A stretch of 64,000 nt of DNA from Eledone cirrhosa (taxonomy: Eukaryota). This document shows, piece by piece, positions 2,108 to 63,659 of the stretch; positions within the stretch are counted from its first letter, which is position 1, and each line of letters opens with the position of its first letter. The stretch lies in contig OZ024761.1 of assembly GCA_964016885.1 (NCBI GenBank), positions 4,960,001 through 5,024,000 on the forward strand, given 5' to 3'. The notes below the pieces were generated by a model that had not been told where the DNA came from, did not search any database, and saw only the letters and a list, made by a program, of their open reading frames with translations. The position numbers and the translations under genes are program-made.

Positions 2108-2168
2108 ATTTTATTATATATATTTCAAGGGTAACGAGTCACCTTGGTACGCTTTCCTCAGATAAAAT
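2108..2168 (-). ncRNA. Type I hammerhead ribozyme motif (family A)
   Basis: Minus strand: ATTTTAT-CTGAGGA-AAGC GTACC..GTTAC CCTT-GAAA-TATATA-T-A-ATAAAAT. 7-bp stem I, CUGANGA and GAAA cores, palindromic stem III. Confidence 0.8.
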
Positions 2169-2298
2169 ACAAAGTTTGTTTTATAAATAGAGACATACCC
2201 ATAAAAATCATACCTTATCGGTTGGATATTCTCTGGATAGTCATACCGATAAGGTATGATTTTTATGGGTATGTCTCTATTTATAAAACAAACTTTGT

Positions 2299-2359
2299 AT
2301 TTTATCTGAGGAAAACGTACCAATGTGTCTCGGTACCCTTGAAATATATATAATAAAAT
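2299..2359 (+). ncRNA. Type I hammerhead ribozyme motif (family A)
   Basis: ATTTTAT-CTGAGGA-AAAC GTACC..GGTAC CCTT-GAAA-TATATA-T-A-ATAAAAT. Confidence 0.8.
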
Positions 2360-5401: not shown

Positions 5402-5460
5402 ATTCTATTATATATATTTCAAGGGTACCAAAACTCTGGTACGCTCTCATCAGATAAAAT
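5402..5460 (-). ncRNA. Type I hammerhead ribozyme motif (family A; element starts at ~5358)
   Basis: Minus: ATTTTAT-CTGATGA-GAGC GTACCA gagttt TGGTAC CCTT-GAAA-TATATA-T-A-ATAGAAT. Confidence 0.85.
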
Positions 5461-6252: not shown

Positions 6253-6314
6253 TTTTATTATATATATTTCGGAGGTACTGTGCTGTTTTATCAGTACGTC
6301 CTCGTCAGATAAAA
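6253..6314 (-). ncRNA. Type I hammerhead ribozyme motif
   Basis: Minus: TTTTAT-CTGACGA-GGAC GTACTG..CAGTAC CTCC-GAAA-TATATA-T-A-ATAAAA. Confidence 0.88.
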
Positions 6315-7159: not shown

Positions 7160-7220
7160 TTTTATCTGATGAGAACGTACTGAAAAACGGCACAGTACCT
7201 CTGAAATATATATAATAAAA
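7160..7220 (+). ncRNA. Type I hammerhead ribozyme motif
   Basis: TTTTAT-CTGATGA-GAAC GTACTG..CAGTAC CTCT-GAAA-TATATA-T-A-ATAAAA. Confidence 0.82.
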
Positions 7221-22805: not shown

Positions 22806-23912
22806 GCACATGTGCATATATATATACAACAGAGGCCCCCAAATCGAAGTATAAGGCAGACATAAAACTAGGTGGGTGTTATTTTTAAAGAAAAGTAAAG
22901 TGGGTGTTTGGAAAAGTTATTGTTTCGACTAGACAAAGGTAGAGTGTGATATATATCTTCACAGCAATAGCTTGGTGGCTTTGGAGCTTAGGCGAATCCC
23001 TTAGTACAGACATATATACCCACCCACACTTTTATATCTCTGGATGCGTGTGTATGTCTATATACACATGTGCACTCATACAAGAGAGCATATACAAATA
23101 TACTCTTAAGCATACACTCGAACATTTTTCAAATGCAACCTGGGGTATTAGTATTTCGTTGCGTTCACATGAGTGTGTACATTCACGTAATCCCAGTATA
23201 CACACACAGTGCACGGTTGCGGGCACTCATTCATGCGTATAGGGTTAGTACCTTGGGATAATTGTTCTTCCTGTGTGGGCCACTCCCGGGGTGGTGTGGG
23301 GGTTTCTCAGGTTCAATAAACGTGGTTTTGTTGACTCCTAACCAGTAGAGGATCCGGTGGACAATCCACCATAGGGGCCACAAACTATGGGTGGATGTTG
23401 TTGCCCATTGGTCATTGGTAGGGGATGTAGGGGACCTACAGGGGGGGGGGCGTTGTGGGAGGCCATAACCGGGGTTTATCCATATAGCTTGAGGAAAGTT
23501 CCCGTCCTTAGGTGTCTGCAGGCGCCGAATAAGTCGGCCCTTCTGTTTAATAGCTTGGTTCCGCCATGAAGTATCTCGAGTGTCTCACTAAGACAGAGGT
23601 TGCAAATACCCACCTCTGTCTGGGGGAACCTTTCTAACCACGGACCAGACCAGAGAGTGCGGGGTCTTTTCAAGTTTGAGCTTCCAGATCAATTCAGAAA
23701 GGGCCGTACATTTCCTCTTTTCTATTCTGTTAAAGGAATGGCGATGGTTATACCACCGATCTTTGAAGCTCGTCGCCGTGGATCCTATGTAGTGGTGCTC
23801 CGAGTTAGGGGTTGTGACCTTGCACCTATAGACTACGTTTTTCGTCATGCAAGTGAGTGAGAGAGAGGGATATATACATATATATATATATATGTATATA
23901 TCCCCCTCTCTC

Positions 23913-24994
23913 TTAATTTTCTTGATTTTTTAGTTGATTCTATTGACTGATGAATAGCTTATGTTAATTTTAACCCTTCTGTTGAGAACTCTATTCGATT
24001 TGTGATGTTTTTGGATTCTTGCAAAAATATACACAACTGAATTCATTCGCCTGATATAGGGGTTGCCTCCCTTGCCGATCCACACGTGGGGTCAGCAATA
24101 GTCAGTCCTTGTATTAACATTGAACTAAAACCTGTTGAGAAAGTGGCTTCCTTGTTCAATCATCTTACCAGAAGCCTGACATTATTTATGTAAGCGGACG
24201 GTACTTGATTTAGGAGCCGCAGAAACCCATATACTGGATTTTACCAACCTTCCAGGGGTCCGGGTAAATTTTCAATACCCGAATTACTTGATCGTTGTTT
24301 TGGCTATGCGAATGATTGTTTAACCATCGTCTCAGTGTGTTTGGCCTTTAACGTTTGTTATAGCTCTGGTTCATCTGAATCATTGAGCACTTGCCGCACA
24401 TCTCGGAGGTTGTTTTTCGTTATTTCGTGGGCCGAAATGCGAATCTCGATAATTTATGTTTGTATTATTCTCCAGACTCTAGCTATTGACCAGTTAATTT
24501 TCTTGATTTTTTAGTTGATTCTATTGACTGATGAATAGCTTATGTTAATTTTAACCCTTCTGTTGAGAACTTTATTCGATTTGTGATGTTTTTGCATTCT
24601 TGCAAAAATATACACAACTGAATTCATCGCCTGATATAGGGGTTGCCTCCCTTGCCGATCCACACGTGGGGTCAGCAATAGTCAGTCCTTGTATTAACAT
24701 TGAACTAAAACCTGTTGAGAAAGTGGCTTCCTTGTTCAATCATCTTATCAGAAGCCTGACATTATTTATGTAAGCGGACGGTACTTGATTTAGGGTAAAT
24801 TTTCAATACCCGAATTACTTGATCGTTGTTTTGGCTATGCGAATGATTGTTTAACCATCGTCTCAGTGTGTTTGGCCTTTAACGTTTGTTATAGCTCTGG
24901 TTTATCTGAATCATTGAACACTTGCCGCACATCTCGGAGGTTGTTTTTCGTTATTTCGTGGGCCGAAATGCGAATCTCGATAATTTATGTTTGT
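23913..24994. repeat. ~580-bp direct tandem duplication inside the PLE remnant
   Basis: 23913-24463 is nearly identical to 24494-24994; the second copy lacks ~50 bp (24214-24262). Confidence 0.92.
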
Positions 24995-26685
24995 TTTTAT
25001 ATATATATATATATATATCCCTCTCTCTCACTCACCACTCTCACTCTCTCTCTATATACATATATATATACATCCCTCCCTCCCTCCACCTCTCTCTCAC
25101 TCTCTCACTCTCTCACTCTCTATCTATTTATATATATCTATCTCTATCTCAATACTGCTCTACATACCAACTCCCATCAATCCTCTATCTAATTCTTCTG
25201 TAATTTACCAACTGACTTCGTCTGTTCTCTCTGCTCCGTCTCTTATCTCTTAATATTGGTTCCAGCTCATTGCTCGACCTTCAATTATCGGATTGTAGAT
25301 ACTTTTCCATTCTATTTATACATTGAGGAAACAGTCCCGTTTTTGAAAGAATCCGACACTATAATGGTGCCCATAAGACAGTCGACGAGCGGAAATTGTC
25401 CACGTGCTTGTTCCTATCGAGTTTTCTGTTTTCTTTAAATGTTCCACTTTTCTTGCTTTTTCCCCCCTTTCTTTTAACGTTCTTTCACTCATGTTTCACG
25501 TGCTATGTGAGACACCATACGTTTTCCCTAACGTCACACAACATTCTATGTTTTCTAGCTTAACGGCTCTATATTACTGTTCTGTCTCTTGTCTCTTACT
25601 CTTTTGGACAGTGTTTGGCTTATGTCAGACGCTGTGACCAGCAGTACCGTTGGTAGGGGTGAAAACTGCCCAAGTCTATCTCAACAGCCGATGACCATGG
25701 AGTTCCGTGTCCTTCGTTTGTATATTTATTTTTAAAAATTAATTCTTTTAGGTTTCCCCTTAAAAAATTGTTTTTCGTTTTGTTTTGTTTCCTTTCGTTT
25801 TCTTGTCCTCTCTTTGTTAATTTTCTTGAGTCTATATATATATATGTAGCGAAATCTATCCGCGCCTTGAATCTTGAGTGACACCTAAAGATCAAATTCT
25901 AGGTCACCACATTTATTGTGTTAACGAGTTCATGCGTGGGCTGTCCCCTCAGGTTGGGGGACAGGAAGTGACAGCTATATATAGAGCCTGTATGAAGCTA
26001 TTTTTGGCGGATACATCGGAGCATTACACCTATAACTAACTATGTAAAGATTCACCACTATCAACAGACCCCGTGAGGTCTACAGATACACCCAGAGCGA
26101 TTGGAGCCCTATTACTACAGAACAGAAATGTGGAAGATTCACCGCTGTCTGCAGGCCACGGTGGTTCACAGTTACGTCAGACCATAACAGAGGTATACAA
26201 ACCATATCTCTCCCTCTCTTACTAACTACGGTCTCACAACTACTACCACGGACTCCAAATAACAACAACAACATTATCTATTTGCTCGCTGTTTTCACAT
26301 CAAAAACATTGTCAACCTTAACAACTCTTGGTAACTGTTTTTATGTACTTTTAATTGATTCACGTGAAGTAAACCATATATAACCAAATCATTTATTCTT
26401 TATATTCTCGTTATTAAACCTATTCTTATTATTCATATTATTACATCTAACAACTTTGTTAATTATTCTAACAATAACTATTTCATAATTATTTTTAACC
26501 CTTCGTTAAATATATATATAAGTTTAAAAGCCCTACAATGTGTACAAGATTAAAGGTGCCAGGGTAATCGGTGTTTAGAGGAAAGAATGAGGACAATAGA
26601 ATTTTACCTTGGCAAATTTAATTATCTCAAATATTTTCGGGCTTAAAAACCCATATATATATATACATACATATTATATTATCCC

Positions 26686-27461
<776 letters not shown>

Positions 27462-49412: not shown

Positions 49413-49857
49413 TAGCTTTATACAATATGTACATTAATTTCGTATTTCTAAAGAAATACGGTTTTAGGAAGCTGTAGCTATGCAAACACTGGGGCTAACG
49501 CCCTCTGGTGGTGTCTAGCAGAAGCAAGGGAGACAACCATCTATGCATTTCAGGCTTGACTGGCCTTCTTCAGGACGGTCCCTCCCACCGCTTGCTACTA
49601 CTGCACTTGAAAACAGACGAGAATATATAGTTGTCTCGTCTGTGTAAATGAGCTGATTAATCTCATTTGCATATGAAGCTACATAAGTTGGCTCAACTTA
49701 GAATAGAAAAGAAATAAGATTTCACTTCAAGCATAGCTTTGTACAATATGTATAGAAATTTCGTATTTCCAAAGAAATACGGTTTTAGAAAGCCGTAGCT
49801 ATGCAAACACCTGGGGCTAACGCCCTCTGGTGGTGTCCAGCAGAAGCAAGGGGGACA
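49413..49857 (-). mobile_element. Retrozyme-like element: ~321-bp unit plus partial repeat, flanked by a 53-bp direct duplication
   Basis: 49413-49535 is similar to 49734-49857; flanks 49356-49408 = 49869-49921; HHR inside. Confidence 0.8.
49536..49579 (-). ncRNA. Minimal type I hammerhead ribozyme, fully canonical core
   Basis: Minus: ACCGTC-CTGAAGA-AGGC cagtcaa GCCT-GAAA-TGCA-T-A-GATGGT. Confidence 0.92.
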
Positions 49858-56542: not shown

Positions 56543-56816
56543 ATATTAAATAAATGGAAACTATATTTATAAAACCATATTTATTCTATTATATATATTT
56601 CAAGGGTACCAAAATTTTGGTACGCTATCATCAGATAAAATACGAAGTGTGTTTTATAAATTTTGACATAACCAAGGAGAATATACCTTAACGGTTCAAG
56701 TTATCCTTGGATAATATCATTGTATATTATACTCCAGAAAATCTGTAGAGTGCTCTGAATCAGTTATAAACATTTATATTTGTTGAATTACCAACAAATT
56801 GAATATCCCTTCTGCT
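56538..56816. mobile_element. Family-A element with HHR at 56583-56641 (minus), 10-nt inverted end and tail
   Basis: Minus: ATTTTAT-CTGATGA-TAGC GTACCAA aatt TTGGTAC CCTT-GAAA-TATATA-T-A-ATAGAAT. CAATGATATT (56538) is mirrored by AATATCATTG (56713). Confidence 0.85.
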
Positions 56817-57500: not shown

Positions 57501-58033
57501 AAGAGAGTATTGAAGTTTGCTTGAAGCATTGTGGAACAATAAGTAAATATTTATAAGTCGTTTGGAAGCCTCGACAATGCAAATGGGTAAATCTCTGGGT
57601 AACAAGGTCCGGTGGTGGAGAGAGAGATATGTAAGTGGGTGTACGTTGAGATGCGTGGTGTGTATAAGATGTGTGAGATGTGTAGAATGAAAGGAAGAGT
57701 AAAAGAATAAAAATAATAATAACAACACAAGAGAGAGTTACCTTGGGAGAGATTTAATAGTCCCTATATATTTCGGATTCACATCCATCAACTGGGGTTT
57801 TTTCCGGGGTGGGGGAAAAGGTTGTCTGTCGGACAACTCGGAACGCGTCTTTCGCTGTCTGTTGATTTGAATATCTGAGGTATTCGGCCGAGCGCGCGTG
57901 CGCGTGAAATGGGGTCGGTCGTACAGAGGTCAGCGGCCGAATGAGGGAGTGGGATGGCACTAGCTGTCAGTCCATTCTCTGCCTGTTTGTTAAATGTTAC
58001 TGTGTGTGTGTGTGCGTGTGTTGTCTCGCTTGA

Positions 58034-58065
<32 letters not shown>

Positions 58066-60353
58066 GTTGTTGCCTTGTTCATCTGTATTGGCAGTGTAGT
58101 ATGTTCGTATGGTGGAATGCTACTGTGTGTGTGTGTGTGTGTAGTTGTCTCGTTTGCGTGTGTGTGTGCGTGTGTTGTGTGTCGTTGCATCGCTTGTTAA
58201 CTTAAACCAGCCATTTCATTTCGCTTCTCTCTAATCGGTTGTTTATTTGCGGTTGCAGTTGTTTGATAAGAAGCGCTTCCTTAATACGTAACGTGTCGAC
58301 GTTTCTTTCAATCGCTAGAATTGTGACAATGGGCCTTCCGTCTTTGTTTCTGCATTTGTCTATGTGTTTCTGGAAAGACGAGGCCCTGGTTTTAATGTGT
58401 TCCTTGATCCGGATGTGCATAAGTCGAATTGTGCTACCTATGTAGTATTGGTTGCACCTGTCACATTCTATCTTATACACGACGTATGTGCGTAGGCAAC
58501 AGTTAGCATGGCGTATCGGGCAGTCTCTGAGGGAGCATGCGTCAGTAGATTTTTCGGGTTTTCTGGAGAGGCATCTTCACAGGGAGGGGCCCGAGTGGGC
58601 CAGGTGGATGTCGAGGCCCTCCCTCCGTATAGCCTTACGGATAGCGTTGGTGGTTTTCTCGCCCAGGTGTGGAATATTAAGGAAGCACTTGCTTTGGGTG
58701 CTTCTCTGTCTCTTGCGTCTGGTGTCTCCTATTCTGTCTGTGATCGAGGTAGGGTACCCGTTCGTCTCCAGCACCTCGAGGAATCGCTTGGTATGAGTGA
58801 CACCACTGGCGGGATCGCTACATCTGTTTTTGAAATCGCGCGATCTCGTTCGTGATGTATCCTCTTTTGGCACTGTTAGGGAGGGCGGACTTGTAGTGAA
58901 CGAACAGGTCCCTGCAGGCTGCCTTTCTGTAGAAGTTGCAGTGGATCCCTCCTTGTTCCGTGATGTTGATTCGGAAGTCGAGGAGGGCAAGTGACCCGTC
59001 TTCGTTGGGGTGTTCAACACTGAAGTCAATGTTCTCGTCCGTGTTGTTGAACATCTCATAGATTCTGTTCGCCGTGTCTTGGGAAGATGTGAGGATGAGG
59101 ATATCGTCCACGTATCTTGAGAAAAAGGCTACGGCGTTGAGGTGGCAGGCGTTGAGAGCCTTTCGTTCGAGGTTGTCCATGTAGGAGATCGCTAGCACAC
59201 CTGATAGACTTGATCCCATGGGCAATCCCGAGGTTTGTTGGTATATTTGGTCAAGGAATCCGAAGTAGGTGTTGTCGACGACGATGGATAGGAGTTGGTG
59301 GATGTCAGTGGTGGTGAGCCCGAAGCAGTGTAGAAAACCCGAAAAATCTACTGACGCATGCTCCCTCAGAGACTGCCCGATACGCCATGCTAACTGTTGC
59401 TTACGCACATACGTTGTGTATAAGATAGAATGTGACAGGTGCAACCAATACTACATAGGTAGCACAATTCGACCTTTGCACATCCGGATCAAGGAACACA
59501 TTAAAACCAGGGCCTCGTCTTTCCGGAAACACGTAGACAAATGCGGAAACAAAGATGGAAGGCCCATTGTCACAATTCTAGCGACTGAAAGAAACGTTGA
59601 CACGTTACGTATTAAGGAAGCGCTTCTTATCAAACAACTGCAACCGCAAATAAACAACCGATTAGAGAGAAGCGAAATGAAATGGCTGGTTTAAGTTAAC
59701 AAGCGATGCAACAACACACAACACACGCACACACACACGCAAACGAGACAACTACACACACACACACACGCACGCACACACACAGTAGCATTCCACCATA
59801 CGAACATACTACACTGCCAATACAGATGAACAAGGCAACAACACACGCACACACACACACACTCAAGCGAGACAACAACACACGCACACACACACGCAGT
59901 AACATTTAACAAACAGGCAGAGAATGGACTGACAGCTAGCGCCATCCCACTCCCTCATTCGGCCGCTGACCTCTGTACGACCGACCCCATTTCACGCGCA
60001 CGCGCGCTCAGCCGAATACCTCAGATATTCAAATCAACAGACAGCGAAAGACGTGTTCCGAGTTGTCCGACAGACAACCTTTTCCCCCACCCCAGAAAAA
60101 ACCCCAGTTGATGGATGTGAATCCGAAATATATAGAGACTATTAAATCTCTCCCAAGGTAACTCTCTCTCTTGTGTTGTTATTATTATTTTTATTCTTTT
60201 ACTCTTCCTTTCATTCTACACATCTCACACATCTTATACACACCACGCATCTCAACGCACACCCACTTACATATCTCTCTCTCCACCACCGGACCTTGTT
60301 ACCCGGAGATTTGCCCATTTGCATTGTCGAGGCTTCCAAATGACTTATAAATA
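57501..60353. mobile_element. Penelope-like element, 5'-truncated, head-to-head inverted structure, in (TA)n
   Basis: Minus arm 59329 to 57501 has RT (GLPMGSSLSGVLA..RYVDDIL..LLDFRI) and GIY-YIG (VVYKIECDRCNQYYIGSTIR..RIKEH), frameshifted. Plus arm 59332-60353 mirrors 57548-58564. Tail 57501-57546. Confidence 0.95.
57762..57797 (-). ncRNA. Non-canonical hammerhead-like motif in PLE pseudo-LTR (mirror copy 60102-60137, +)
   Basis: CCC-CAGTTGAT-GGAT gtga ATCC-GAAA-TATA-T-A-GGG. Confidence 0.6.
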
Positions 60354-60529
60354 TATATATATGATATAAAGAAGAGAGACAGTTTAGAATGTACATCCTC
60401 TCTTTATTATATAATCGTGTTATATGTATTTCGAAGATGTCAAAGTGATTGCACAATAACTGTTTGACGTCTTCAGAACTATAGACATGCACAGACAGAC
60501 CCAGTAACTTTGACATAACAATGGTCTCT

Positions 60530-61000
60530 ACCGACTCAGCCCAAATTACAGACTTGCTAATCTGATCACCAAGGTATCGGAAGCTATCAACCACATCTAT
60601 AGATCCTACCTGCATTTGAAAAATGTGTCTATCACTGCGACTTCTCATGTCAAATTTCCCTGAACATCTACTGCACACGTATTTCTCCCTACCTGTTAGT
60701 TTGCCTGCTATCCCACTACACCTCTTGTGTATCCAAGATGTGCATTGTGTACATTTTATAGAATTTATGCCAACTACTTTTCTACATATCGAACATGGCC
60801 ATTTCCCTGATGGAATCAGAGTCTTGTCCTCTTTCCTACTTATCAACACTTTAGTCTTAGCTAAGTTCACTCTCAGTCCTCTTGATTCCAACTGCTGTTT
60901 CCATAGCCAGAATTTATTCTCTAGCTCCTCTACTGATTCTGTGATAGGTACCATATCGACAGCATAGAGAAGTTCCCATGGGCAGCCAATCTTAAACTCT
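60530..61000 (-). mobile_element. RTE LINE fragment (RT C-terminal part with PHD-like Cys cluster)
   Basis: GCPWELLYAVD..GLRVNLAKTKVL..KWPCSIC..NSIKCTQCTSWIHKRC..FRYLGD. Confidence 0.88.
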
Positions 61001-61056
61001 TACACCATTTGGTGTAGGACAGATTAAATGAGAGACACACAAAAAATAAAAACCTA

Positions 61057-61099
61057 GTCACTGAAGAGGTCACAGAATGTGTGACAAAAGAGCTTTGAT
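61057..61099 (+). ncRNA. Hammerhead motif with G12->A mutation (probably inactive)
   Basis: GTCA-CTGAAGA-G-GTCAC agaatgt GTGAC-AAAA-GAGC-T-T-TGAT. Confidence 0.6.
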
Positions 61100-61319
61100 A
61101 ATATATAAACAACCATCCGGTTATCGAACCAACCATCCAACCCGAAATTTATAATAAATTGAAGTGAAAACCAACAGGAGCATGTGTTTTTATTGGCAAC
61201 ATGACCCTCCCAAAGTATAACAATATATGTTTCAACACACGGTTTCAGATAAGAAATCTCACAAAACAAATTCAAAAACAAATCACATATATATATATAT
61301 ATATATGTGATTTGTTTTT

Positions 61320-61360
<41 letters not shown>

Positions 61361-61380
61361 TATAAATATATATATATATA

Positions 61381-61640
61381 TCATCATCATCATCATCATC
61401 ATCACCACTATTTTACATCCGCTTTTCCCTGCTTGCAAGGGTGGGACGGGTCTTATTCAGCACAGCATCTCTCCACTCGTCACGGTCCCTCGTCATCTCC
61501 ACCGTGAGCTTCAATGATCTGAGGTCTGTTCTCACCACCTCCGCCCATGTTTTTCGTGGTCTACCTCTACCACGTCTTCCTTCAACTGGCATTTCCTGGC
61601 ACTTCTTCAACCATCGGTCATCCTCCATGCGCATCACATA
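61381..61640 (-). mobile_element. RTE LINE 3' end with (GAT)n tail
   Basis: VMRMEDDRWLKKC..GRRGRGRPRKTWAEVVRTDL..DRDEWR. Confidence 0.88.
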
Positions 61641-61641
61641 T

Positions 61642-61672
<31 letters not shown>

Positions 61673-61767
61673 GGAAAATGTCCAAGACCCCGATGGCAGA
61701 GCTCAACCCTAAGTATTGAGTGCTTTGGTGCATTATGGTCCACCTGGTTCCTTACCACACTTCCTTC

Positions 61768-61844
<77 letters not shown>

Positions 61845-61855
61845 ATATGTATATA

Positions 61856-62783
61856 TGTAATACAAATGAATATATGAGAGATGAACATCTATACACTTAT
61901 AGAAGTGTTCAGATTGCAAATGACCAAGTTAGCTAGGTTGAAAAAATACTAATTTAACATAATATGGTTTGCAAGTCTCGATTTAAAATAATAAATCAAT
62001 AAAAATAACAAACCTATATTGGCAATGGCCGTGACACCCGGACAAATTTTAAATCTGTTTGACAAATTTCAAATTTGTTTCGCAACAATTAAGTGAAAGT
62101 TACTATTCCTGTGCTCTTCTGCAGGTATCCAGAAATTGGTACCTTCCACTTCAAAATACTTAAGAAGACTGAGAAACATGTGTTGTTGAACGCACGTGTG
62201 TCAGCGCCTAACTCTTTAAGCTATTTAATTGTAAAAGACTATTTCGAGTTTATAACTCAATATTTGATATTTATGGCTCCATGCGTTGAGCTAATTTTTT
62301 AGTCCCATAAAACCGACTGCTATTTTTAGCGGCAGGGATATGAAACGAGTTAGGCGCTGGGACACACGTGCGTTCAACAACACATGTTTCTCAGTCTTCT
62401 TAAGTATTTTGAAGTGGAAGGTACCAATTTCTGGATACCTGCAGAAGAGCACAGGAATAGTAACTTTCACTTAATTGTTGCGAAACAAATTTGAAATTTG
62501 TCAAACAGATTTAAAATTTGTCCGGGTGTCACGGCCATTGCCAATATAGGTTTGTTATTTTTATTGATTTATTATTTTAAATCGAGACCGGCAAACCATA
62601 TTATGTTAAATTAGTAATCTTTCAACCTAGCTAATTTGGTCATTTGCAATCTGAACACTTCTATAATTGTATAGATGTTCATCTCTCATATATTCACTTG
62701 TATTACACGGCTCAGAAATATTCCCTTCTTTGAGCTATTTAATTGTAAAAAACTATTTCGAGTTTATAACTCAATATTTGATA
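61856..62783. mobile_element. Inverted-repeat element with ~360-bp arms, right tail and CAGAAGA hammerhead-like motif
   Basis: Arms 61856-62215 and 62347-62707. 62439-62508: CAGAAGA-GCA..TGC-GAAA-CAAATT tga AATTTG-T-C, with stem I poorly formed. Confidence 0.8.
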
Positions 62784-62954
62784 TGTATATATATGTATAT
62801 ATATATATATATATGTATTTATATGTATATATATATGCATGTGTATATGTTTTTCAAGAGATGTCAACATGAATGGACCTATTATTTTTATCTAAAGACA
62901 TTTTTTCCAATTCCTTCCCACCTGTCCCCTTAATCTATTTTATTTCTCATTCTT

Positions 62955-62990
62955 TCTTCTGATGAAGGACTAGCGTCCGAAACGTTAAGA
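62955..62990 (+). ncRNA. Minimal type I hammerhead ribozyme
   Basis: TCTT-CTGATGA-A-GGAC tagc GTCC-GAAA-CG-T-T-AAGA; the downstream ~100 bp is homologous to 20471-20570. Confidence 0.85.
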
Positions 62991-63074
62991 CCCTCTTCCT
63001 GCTATATCAATCGTTAACCTAATATATACCTTCCATATACTGTACTGATTGTGTTGTTATTTCTGTTTACCTTT

Positions 63075-63106
<32 letters not shown>

Positions 63107-63113
<7 letters not shown>

Positions 63114-63634
63114 CGTAGTTAAGAAAGCCACAACAATGCAGAGGGAAATCTCGAGGTAGGAAGTGAAAGATAGATAGGAAAAACAGGTGAAAGTGAAAAT
63201 TGAGAGAGACAAAGATGAAAACAAAACAAAGGTAGAAGGGTTACCGTAGTGGAGATTTAATCCCAATATTTCGGGCTCACGCCCATCAACGGGGGAAAGT
63301 TCCAAAAGGGGGGGAACAGGCCAAGCGGAGATCCTCATAACGGCATTCCTGTCTTAACGACATCACAACTTTCTCCGCTTGGCCTGTTCCCCCCCTTTTG
63401 GAACTTTCCCCCGTTGATGGGCGTGAGCCCGAAATATTGGGATTAAATCTCCACTACGGTAACCCTTCTACCTTTGTTTTGTTTTCATCTTTGTCTCTCT
63501 CAATTTTCAGTTTCACCTGTTTCTCTTATCTATCTTTCACTTCCTACCTCGAGATTTCCCTCTGCATTGTTGTGGCTTTCTTAACTACGTATTTTACACA
63601 TTTCACAATGCTTCAAGCAAACTTTAACACCCTC
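63107..63634. mobile_element. Non-coding inverted pseudo-LTR pair related to the 57.5-kb PLE
   Basis: Arms 63107-63331 and 63372-63596. Tail CACAATGCTTCAAGCAAACTT is shared with the reverse complement of 57513-57533. Confidence 0.85.
63407..63442 (+). ncRNA. Non-canonical hammerhead-like motif (mirror copy 63261-63296, -)
   Basis: TCCC-CCGTTGAT-GGGC gtga GCCC-GAAA-TA-T-T-GGGA. Confidence 0.6.
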
Positions 63635-63659
63635 ATATATATATATATATATATATATA

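What the first reader, a model, noticed from the sequence alone, without database searches (positions are those of the whole stretch)
57762..63442. Non-canonical CNGUUGAU hammerhead-like motif with compensatory changes
Seen: the PLE pseudo-LTR has CCC-CAGTTGAT-GGAT gtga ATCC-GAAA-TATA-TA-GGG and its diverged relative has TCCC-CCGTTGAT-GGGC gtga GCCC-GAAA-TA-TT-GGGA. Two stem-II pairs change compensatorily while the GUGA tetraloop, C3, G5, G8, A9, GAAA and palindromic stem III persist. U4 and A6 are substituted and one extra nt follows A9. A half motif at 26627-26654 (minus) looks similar. Known: A6 is nearly invariant in hammerheads. Inference: either an active double-variant ribozyme or an HHR-derived fold kept for another role such as dimerisation or RT binding.
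Basis: partly seen in the sequence, partly recalled or inferred. Interest (0 to 1): 0.85.

Follow-up and report, generated by a model that had tools for sequence, protein, structure and literature searches.

The report
Mutant-core hammerhead in thriving Penelope retrotransposons
Thousands of young copies of a jumping gene carry a hammerhead-ribozyme-like motif in which two core letters have been replaced, with older copies keeping the normal and half-changed forms, so it likely no longer cuts RNA well yet has been kept, which would make the unknown purpose of these ribozymes directly testable.

Summary
The motif is real: four copies in the window and 4,561 genome matches against 85 control. 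It sits in the pseudo-LTR, on the sense strand, of two young Penelope-like families, A and B. Their proteins are 70% identical and 98 of 167 four-fold sites differ. It descends from a minimal hammerhead. Older relatives carry the canonical core or U4C (family D), then A6U alone (F), then A6U plus U4A (C, A) or U4C (B); an outgroup element is canonical. Stems, C3, G5, G8, A9, G12-A15.1 and the stem III palindrome are kept, with two compensatory stem II pairs in B. Corrections: the extra base after A9 is standard in these ribozymes, loop II varies, and the half motif at 26.6 kb belongs to a family with the published U3-A8 core. Published mutagenesis finds no rescue of U-turn double mutants, so a crippled ribozyme kept as a leader structure is likeliest (0.55); weak assisted cleavage is next (0.3). 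Cleavage is untested. I did not find this core in print (Lunse 2017 was unavailable); this scan noted only a U3-A8 case elsewhere.

The parts
57762..57797 (-). Family A hammerhead-derived motif (U4A, A6U), intact stem I; C3 at 57794, predicted site 17 at 57765
60102..60137 (+). Second family A motif in the inverted arm; G>A at 60136 breaks stem I
63407..63442 (+). Family B motif (U4C, A6U), two compensatory stem II pairs, 4-bp stem I, U17
63261..63296 (-). Family B motif in the inverted arm of a short head-to-head pLTR insertion
57502..59333 (-). 5'-truncated family A copy: frameshifted RT/GIY-YIG C-terminus (aa 500-875), 3' UTR, pLTR, and the first 28 nt of the next ORF start (ATG at 57529), ending in a TA run
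59332..60350 (+). Inverted 5'-truncated family A copy (aa 756-875, 3' UTR, pLTR) forming the inverted repeat
63110..63635 (.). Family B insertion, two inverted pLTR arms between TA runs (ends approximate); ORF start codon at 63608 on +
60155..60162 (+). Splice-donor-like motif about 20 nt after predicted site 17, kept in all families (also 57737-57744 on -, 63456-63463 on +); use as a donor is inferred only
26625..26654 (-). 5'-truncated hammerhead of family E (full copies: U3-A8 covariant core, A6 intact); not the U6 motif
62955..62990 (+). Canonical minimal hammerhead of an unrelated young PLE family (K), used as control

Best explanation
The motif is the pseudo-LTR minimal hammerhead of a Penelope-like retrotransposon lineage in which A6 and U4 are replaced while the stems and the other core bases are kept, and it likely cleaves little or not at all and is likely retained as a structural hairpin in the RNA leader. 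Shown: homology to a canonical hammerhead, subfamilies with canonical, A6U-only and double-variant cores, conservation far above neutral, compensatory stem II changes between two U6 families, and no other canonical hammerhead in the A or B copies scanned. Inferred: the order of steps (A6U first, then position 4 free), loss of catalysis (from mutagenesis of other hammerheads), and the role. The likeliest role is a protein-bound stem I/stem II structure with tandem G.A pairs just ahead of the putative 5' splice site, helping to control processing of the leader. Transposition by target-primed reverse transcription would proceed without self-cleavage.
For: Subfamily series: D1 canonical, D2 U4C, F A6U, C/A A6U+U4A, B A6U+U4C; tip lengths fall from D (0.07-0.26) through F and C to A and B (0.00-0.03, one misaligned B row aside); outgroup canonical. 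A versus B: 98 of 167 four-fold sites differ but 29 of 35 motif positions are identical (hand count; binomial 5.6e-7 at p=0.41, 0.003 at p=0.6, window chosen after the fact). 3 of 28 upstream columns are invariant among six U6 groups. Position 4 takes U, A and C once A6 is gone, as expected if the U-turn is no longer constrained. All single and double mutants of the U-turn region were low, only the 3-8 swap rescued (PMC9901934 passages). A6C cost about five orders of magnitude at 0.3 mM Mg in one construct (PMC7151607). Cleavage is dispensable for PLE insertion in vitro (PMC11167929) and Naiad PLEs lack hammerheads (Craig preprint). No second hammerhead in A or B.
Against: No cleavage or RNA data. 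C3, G5, G8, G12, A15.1-U16.1, the palindrome and a non-G at 17 are all kept, as an active ribozyme needs. Natural single variants at 4 and 6 keep low activity (PMC3088659, PMC7151607), and the Anolis PLE ribozyme cleaves only with protein, so weak assisted activity cannot be excluded. Predicted pairing of U6 (0.40-0.97 in U6 families against 0.01-0.23 in four A6 controls at 37 C) does not discriminate, because family E with A6 also scores 0.76. The role is not shown, and RT binding was not needed in the Anolis element. The root of the subfamily tree is unsure.
Confidence: 0.55

Rival explanations
1. It is a slow but functional variant ribozyme: two motifs pair through the stem III palindrome, and the element's protein or Mn2+ compensates for the lost U-turn contacts, so cleavage at position 17 still makes the 5' end of some transcripts.
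For: Every catalytic or conformational base other than 4 and 6 is invariant across six U6 groups, position 17 changed only A to U, and the palindrome survived a 2-nt insertion. A6C is natural and is rescued by Mn2+. U4C supports viroid infectivity (PMC3088659). PLE hammerheads are known to be weak, dimeric and protein-assisted. Sister families explore other tolerated variants (U4C in D2, U3-A8 in E).
Against: No rescue among U-turn double mutants in a type III hammerhead. The minimal scaffold lacks tertiary contacts and is already barely active when canonical. Position 4 drifted to two other letters, and the free position 7 stayed U. The few invariant bases that only catalysis explains (C3, 16.1, 16.2) each have about a 0.4 chance of staying unchanged anyway.
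Confidence: 0.3
2. The block is kept mainly as DNA or linear sequence (internal promoter or splice-control element), and the paired changes in stem II arose by template switching in a quasi-palindrome rather than by selection on an RNA fold.
For: Penelope has an internal promoter around its pLTR and intron (PMC2377424 abstract). Neighbouring unpaired blocks, a 14-nt upstream element and the donor-like motif, are also conserved between A and B. The compensatory evidence inside the U6 clade is one lineage (B), and no intermediate copies were found (9 hits, all B point mutants).
Against: All six substitutions in the A/B motif fall on two partner pairs, position 4 and position 17, which is the hammerhead pattern. 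Stems I and II covary further in E and the outgroup.
Confidence: 0.1
3. Neutral relic: the ribozyme died and the sequence has simply not yet decayed.
For: A and B copies are young; families can spread without hammerheads.
Against: About 1.1 substitutions per four-fold site separate A and B, and most of their 3' UTR and leader do not align, while the motif is 83% identical with compensatory changes.
Confidence: 0.05

Closest known systems
Minimal type I hammerheads of metazoan Penelope-like elements (Cervera and De la Pena 2014, PMC4209133)
   Same: pLTR location, sense strand, short stem I, extra base between 9 and 10.1, G10.1-C11.1, palindromic stem III, H17
   Different: Published consensus keeps U4 and A6; the described core variant is U3-A8. 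Here both U-turn bases are replaced in families with thousands of young copies.
Bcep176 A6C hammerhead and viroid U4C hammerhead (PMC3088659, PMC7151607)
   Same: Natural single changes at the same two core positions, with low but real activity
   Different: Single changes, to C, in full-size ribozymes; not A6U, not double, not in a retrotransposon series.
PAc (Poseidon) protein-assisted hammerhead of Anolis (PMC11167929)
   Same: Same element class; insertion ends set by internal RT initiation downstream of the motif; cleavage not needed in vitro
   Different: PAc's hammerhead cleaves with protein and needs C3 and G8; no change at 4 or 6 is mentioned in the parts read.
Naiad and most Chlamys PLEs (Craig et al., 10.1101/2021.04.23.441226)
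   Same: Prolific PLEs without a detectable canonical hammerhead
   Different: They have an N-terminal endonuclease and no motif was found even with relaxed descriptors; this lineage has a C-terminal endonuclease and a clearly homologous, conserved fold.

Membership tests
PLE minimal hammerhead | Lies in the pLTR of an RT + GIY-YIG element, sense strand | tested here: met
   Direct copies flank the ORF in L074 and L077; Pfam RVT_1 1e-10, GIY-YIG 4e-4, below the curated cut-off
PLE minimal hammerhead | Stem I, stem II with G10.1-C11.1, extra base after A9 | tested here: met
   covariation in B, E and the outgroup read by eye
PLE minimal hammerhead | C3, G5, G8, A9, G12, A13, A14, A15.1-U16.1, H17, palindromic stem III | tested here: met
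   Commonest letter in all six U6 groups
PLE minimal hammerhead | U4 and A6 of the U-turn | tested here: not met
   U6 in F, C, A, B; A4 in C and A; C4 in B
PLE minimal hammerhead | Descent from a canonical hammerhead | tested here: met
   D1 and outgroup canonical in the homologous place
Hammerhead ribozyme (functional) | Self-cleavage 3' of position 17 | not testable with these tools
   No RNA run listed; genomic junction test inconclusive
Rfam hammerhead families | Covariance-model match | tested here: inconclusive
   No hammerhead hit in a full A copy or among the 150 of 309 window hits listed; the canonical motif at 62959 was not listed either, so the models may miss minimal hammerheads
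Nematis-type PLE | DKG motif, CCHH in the endonuclease, cysteine linker between RT and EN | tested here: inconclusive
   Motifs read in P0001 against Craig's description; no tree with named references was built
Kink-turn | 3-nt bulge between a canonical stem and tandem G.A pairs (definition recalled) | tested here: not met
   By inspection, no canonical stem forms next to the G.A pairs in that register

The most novel reading that the evidence does not exclude
The U6/N4 motif is an active hammerhead that has replaced the universally conserved U-turn with another fold, reached by steps still preserved as genomic fossils and rescued by dimerisation or the element's own protein. It would be a natural double-variant core, and it would imply that descriptor searches miss such ribozymes, including in PLE families now called ribozyme-free.
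Probability: 0.3. Interest if true: 0.8.

Novelty: new variant of a known kind. Interest (0 to 1): 0.55.

Why it matters
Why PLEs carry hammerheads is open: the reviewed papers call the function unclear and allow for roles other than cleavage. Here one genome holds a natural allelic series (canonical, U4C, U3-A8, A6U, A6U+U4A, A6U+U4C) on nearly the same scaffold, and the most altered forms are in young, abundant families. Six short RNAs in one assay would tell whether selection keeps the cut or only the fold. A dead result would show a ribozyme kept for a non-catalytic role; an active result would revise the hammerhead core consensus.

Tried and rejected
Alternative register (reading U6-U7-G8-A9 as positions 3-6): rejected, because it needs A9G and two extra bases and contradicts the alignment with family D. 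Upstream AG as a splice acceptor that remakes the core: rejected, absent in B. RNA evidence: no RNA holder listed; the four runs laid were contigs of one study. 5'-junction pile-up at site 17: among 30 of 60 family A loci, 2 of 24 true junctions lay exactly there, against 0-4 non-TA junctions at neighbouring positions. The canonical control K (30 of 206 loci) showed junctions driven by TA microhomology, and the A pattern cannot see TA-run junctions at the site, so the test is inconclusive. Folding energies did not separate the hypotheses. Viral contigs: no relative. GTDB: two PLE contigs in MAGs, one with its pLTR. No further U6 family with a different second stem II base (100 of 105 hits seen) and no B intermediates. 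No formal pair count was made, so covariation rests on reading by eye. Lunse et al. 2017 is not held and file 1 of the Cervera supplement could not be searched; either may list such a variant.
Full report
Observation. The window is G000:C22:4960001-5024000 of a 3.0 Gb genome. The nearest named homologue of the element's protein is from Octopus bimaculoides (55% over 47% of the region searched), so the host is probably an octopus; this is an inference. The motif occurs four times: family A at 57762-57797 (-) and 60102-60137 (+), family B at 63261-63296 (-) and 63407-63442 (+). The pattern has 4,561 matches genome-wide against 85 for the reversed control. There are 1,449 exact B stems and 2,982 A/C anchors. 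The copy at 60105 has a near-private change in stem I.

The element. Full-length A copies have the motif in direct repeats about 3.3 kb apart around one ORF (L074, L077). [quoted passage not shown] The motif is on the sense strand about 420 nt after the stop. It is followed by a donor-like motif, a pyrimidine-rich tract and the first 28 nt of the next ORF, where many copies end in TA runs. This is the pLTR, tail and inverted 5'-truncated layout described for PLEs (Craig preprint passages). No canonical, U3-A8 or G3-C8 hammerhead lies elsewhere in one full A copy or one partial B pair, and Rfam finds none.

Homology and history. A search for the canonical core in the same context gave 5 matches at 3 loci. 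These led to an old family D whose copies are 75-84% identical to the query. D1 (10 copies) mostly has the canonical core and D2 (15 copies) mostly U4C; A6 is the commonest letter in at least 90% of both (one copy in each group was a seed chosen for its core). A search for U4 with U6 gave 46 matches. Ten of 30 loci inspected form their own subfamily F and the rest are point mutants of A or C. Three more U4+U6 copies came from DNA searches blind to the core. C and A have U4A+A6U; B has U4C+A6U. A PLE contig in a MAG, 36% identical in protein, has a canonical core with the same architecture. In a 630-column DNA tree of 55 ORF ends, D, F, C and A form a ladder with shrinking tips, and B joins at the F/C boundary (bootstrap 88). 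With 24 rows dropped, starred branches still separate D from B, C and A, but the long outgroup joins B (73/95). A protein tree put B outside D at 63. So one origin of A6U followed by at least two changes at position 4 is preferred, from the unrooted DNA topology and tip lengths. Two origins, or a reversion in D, are not excluded.

Selection. A and B are 70% identical over 508 codons, and 98 of 167 four-fold sites differ (Jukes-Cantor 1.14). In the non-coding region, apart from simple repeats, only the motif-to-donor block, a 14-nt upstream element and the stretch before the start codon align well. In the motif 29 of 35 positions are identical (hand count); the six differences are position 4, position 17 (A to U) and two compensatory stem II pairs, plus a 2-nt insertion that keeps the palindrome. 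Across six U6 groups the stems and core stay fixed while 3 of 28 upstream columns do. Contigs of one other study show no substitution at 5% or more across 60103-60135 but many in the flanks (possibly the same species, weak evidence). The compensatory signal inside the U6 clade comes from one lineage, with no intermediates found.

Corrections. The base after A9 is a standard trait of PLE minimal hammerheads (PMC4209133). The half motif at 26.6 kb is a truncated member of family E, whose core is the published U3-A8 covariant with A6 intact and whose stem I covaries.

Mechanism. U4 and A6 are the two ends of the U-turn (own knowledge; the turn's importance is). [quoted passage not shown] Natural A6C is weak and Mn-dependent, and canonical minimal hammerheads are already weak and dimeric. 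In the one PLE reconstituted, the ribozyme needs protein, is dispensable for insertion in vitro, and no RNA-seq reads ended at its site (PMC11167929). I therefore put 0.55 on a crippled ribozyme kept as a leader structure. I put 0.3 on weak assisted cleavage, because every other catalytic base and the palindrome are kept, 0.1 on a DNA-level element and 0.05 on a neutral relic. Folding predictions let U6 pair into the opposite strand but do not discriminate, since family E behaves alike. The junction test was inconclusive in both A and the canonical control K. No RNA data were available.

Literature seen. PMC4209133: parts 1-2 of 4, and passages of supplement file 2 (file 1 not searchable). 10.64898/2026.07.22.740005: part 1 of 5. 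Craig preprint, PMC3088659, PMC7151607, PMC9901934 (supplements listed, not read), PMC6765202, PMC11014351 and PMC13282606: passages. PMC11167929: passages and half of section 3. PMC2377424: abstract. Searches showed no paper on an A6U or U4/A6 double-variant natural hammerhead, judged from listings and the passages above; a 2026 Octopus repeat annotation does not mention ribozymes. Lunse et al. 2017 on PLE hammerhead variants is not held and could contain it. The scan's own notes had one U3-A8 case in another genome and nothing like this sequence.

Verdict. A real, selected, previously unreported (as far as searched) variant of a known motif, with a fossil series that makes the function of PLE hammerheads testable. 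Activity is unknown. Interest 0.55.

Noticed in passing
window 60155-60162 and 60298-60304 (+): The donor-like motif has a complementary stretch 40-150 nt downstream in families A, C, F, D, B and E, which could mask the splice site and bear on intron retention in PLEs; predicted pairing is strong in A but uneven elsewhere.
   Followed up: partly
window 59992-60005 (+): A 14-nt GC-rich element about 100 nt upstream of the motif is identical in A and B; it resembles an NRF1-type site (recalled) and may be part of the promoter.
   Followed up: no
L200:2195-2221 (-), L205:327-357 (+): One locus seen in two metagenome assemblies has a minimal hammerhead-like motif with A6U only and a 4-bp stem II, with no PLE protein nearby; it may be a point mutant or an independent case.
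   Followed up: partly
window 2123-2344, 5417-5453, 6267-6308, 7166-7185, 27299-27339, 56598-56634: At least seven copies of another abundant repeat with a canonical hammerhead core, a long stem II and a TA-rich stem III region.
   Followed up: no
window 62850-63085 (+): Young PLE family K with a canonical minimal hammerhead, 3,599 exact anchors genome-wide, also ending in TA runs.
   Followed up: partly
window 23588-23929 (-): GIY-YIG-like fragment of a different PLE.
   Followed up: no
window 49548-49573 (-): Further canonical-core hammerhead candidate passing my descriptor.
   Followed up: no
L266, L267: PLE sequences lie in two bacterial MAG assemblies, most likely animal contamination.
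   Followed up: no
window 61856-62707: A 347-nt inverted repeat, 98% complementary, unrelated to the motif; possibly a MITE.
   Followed up: no
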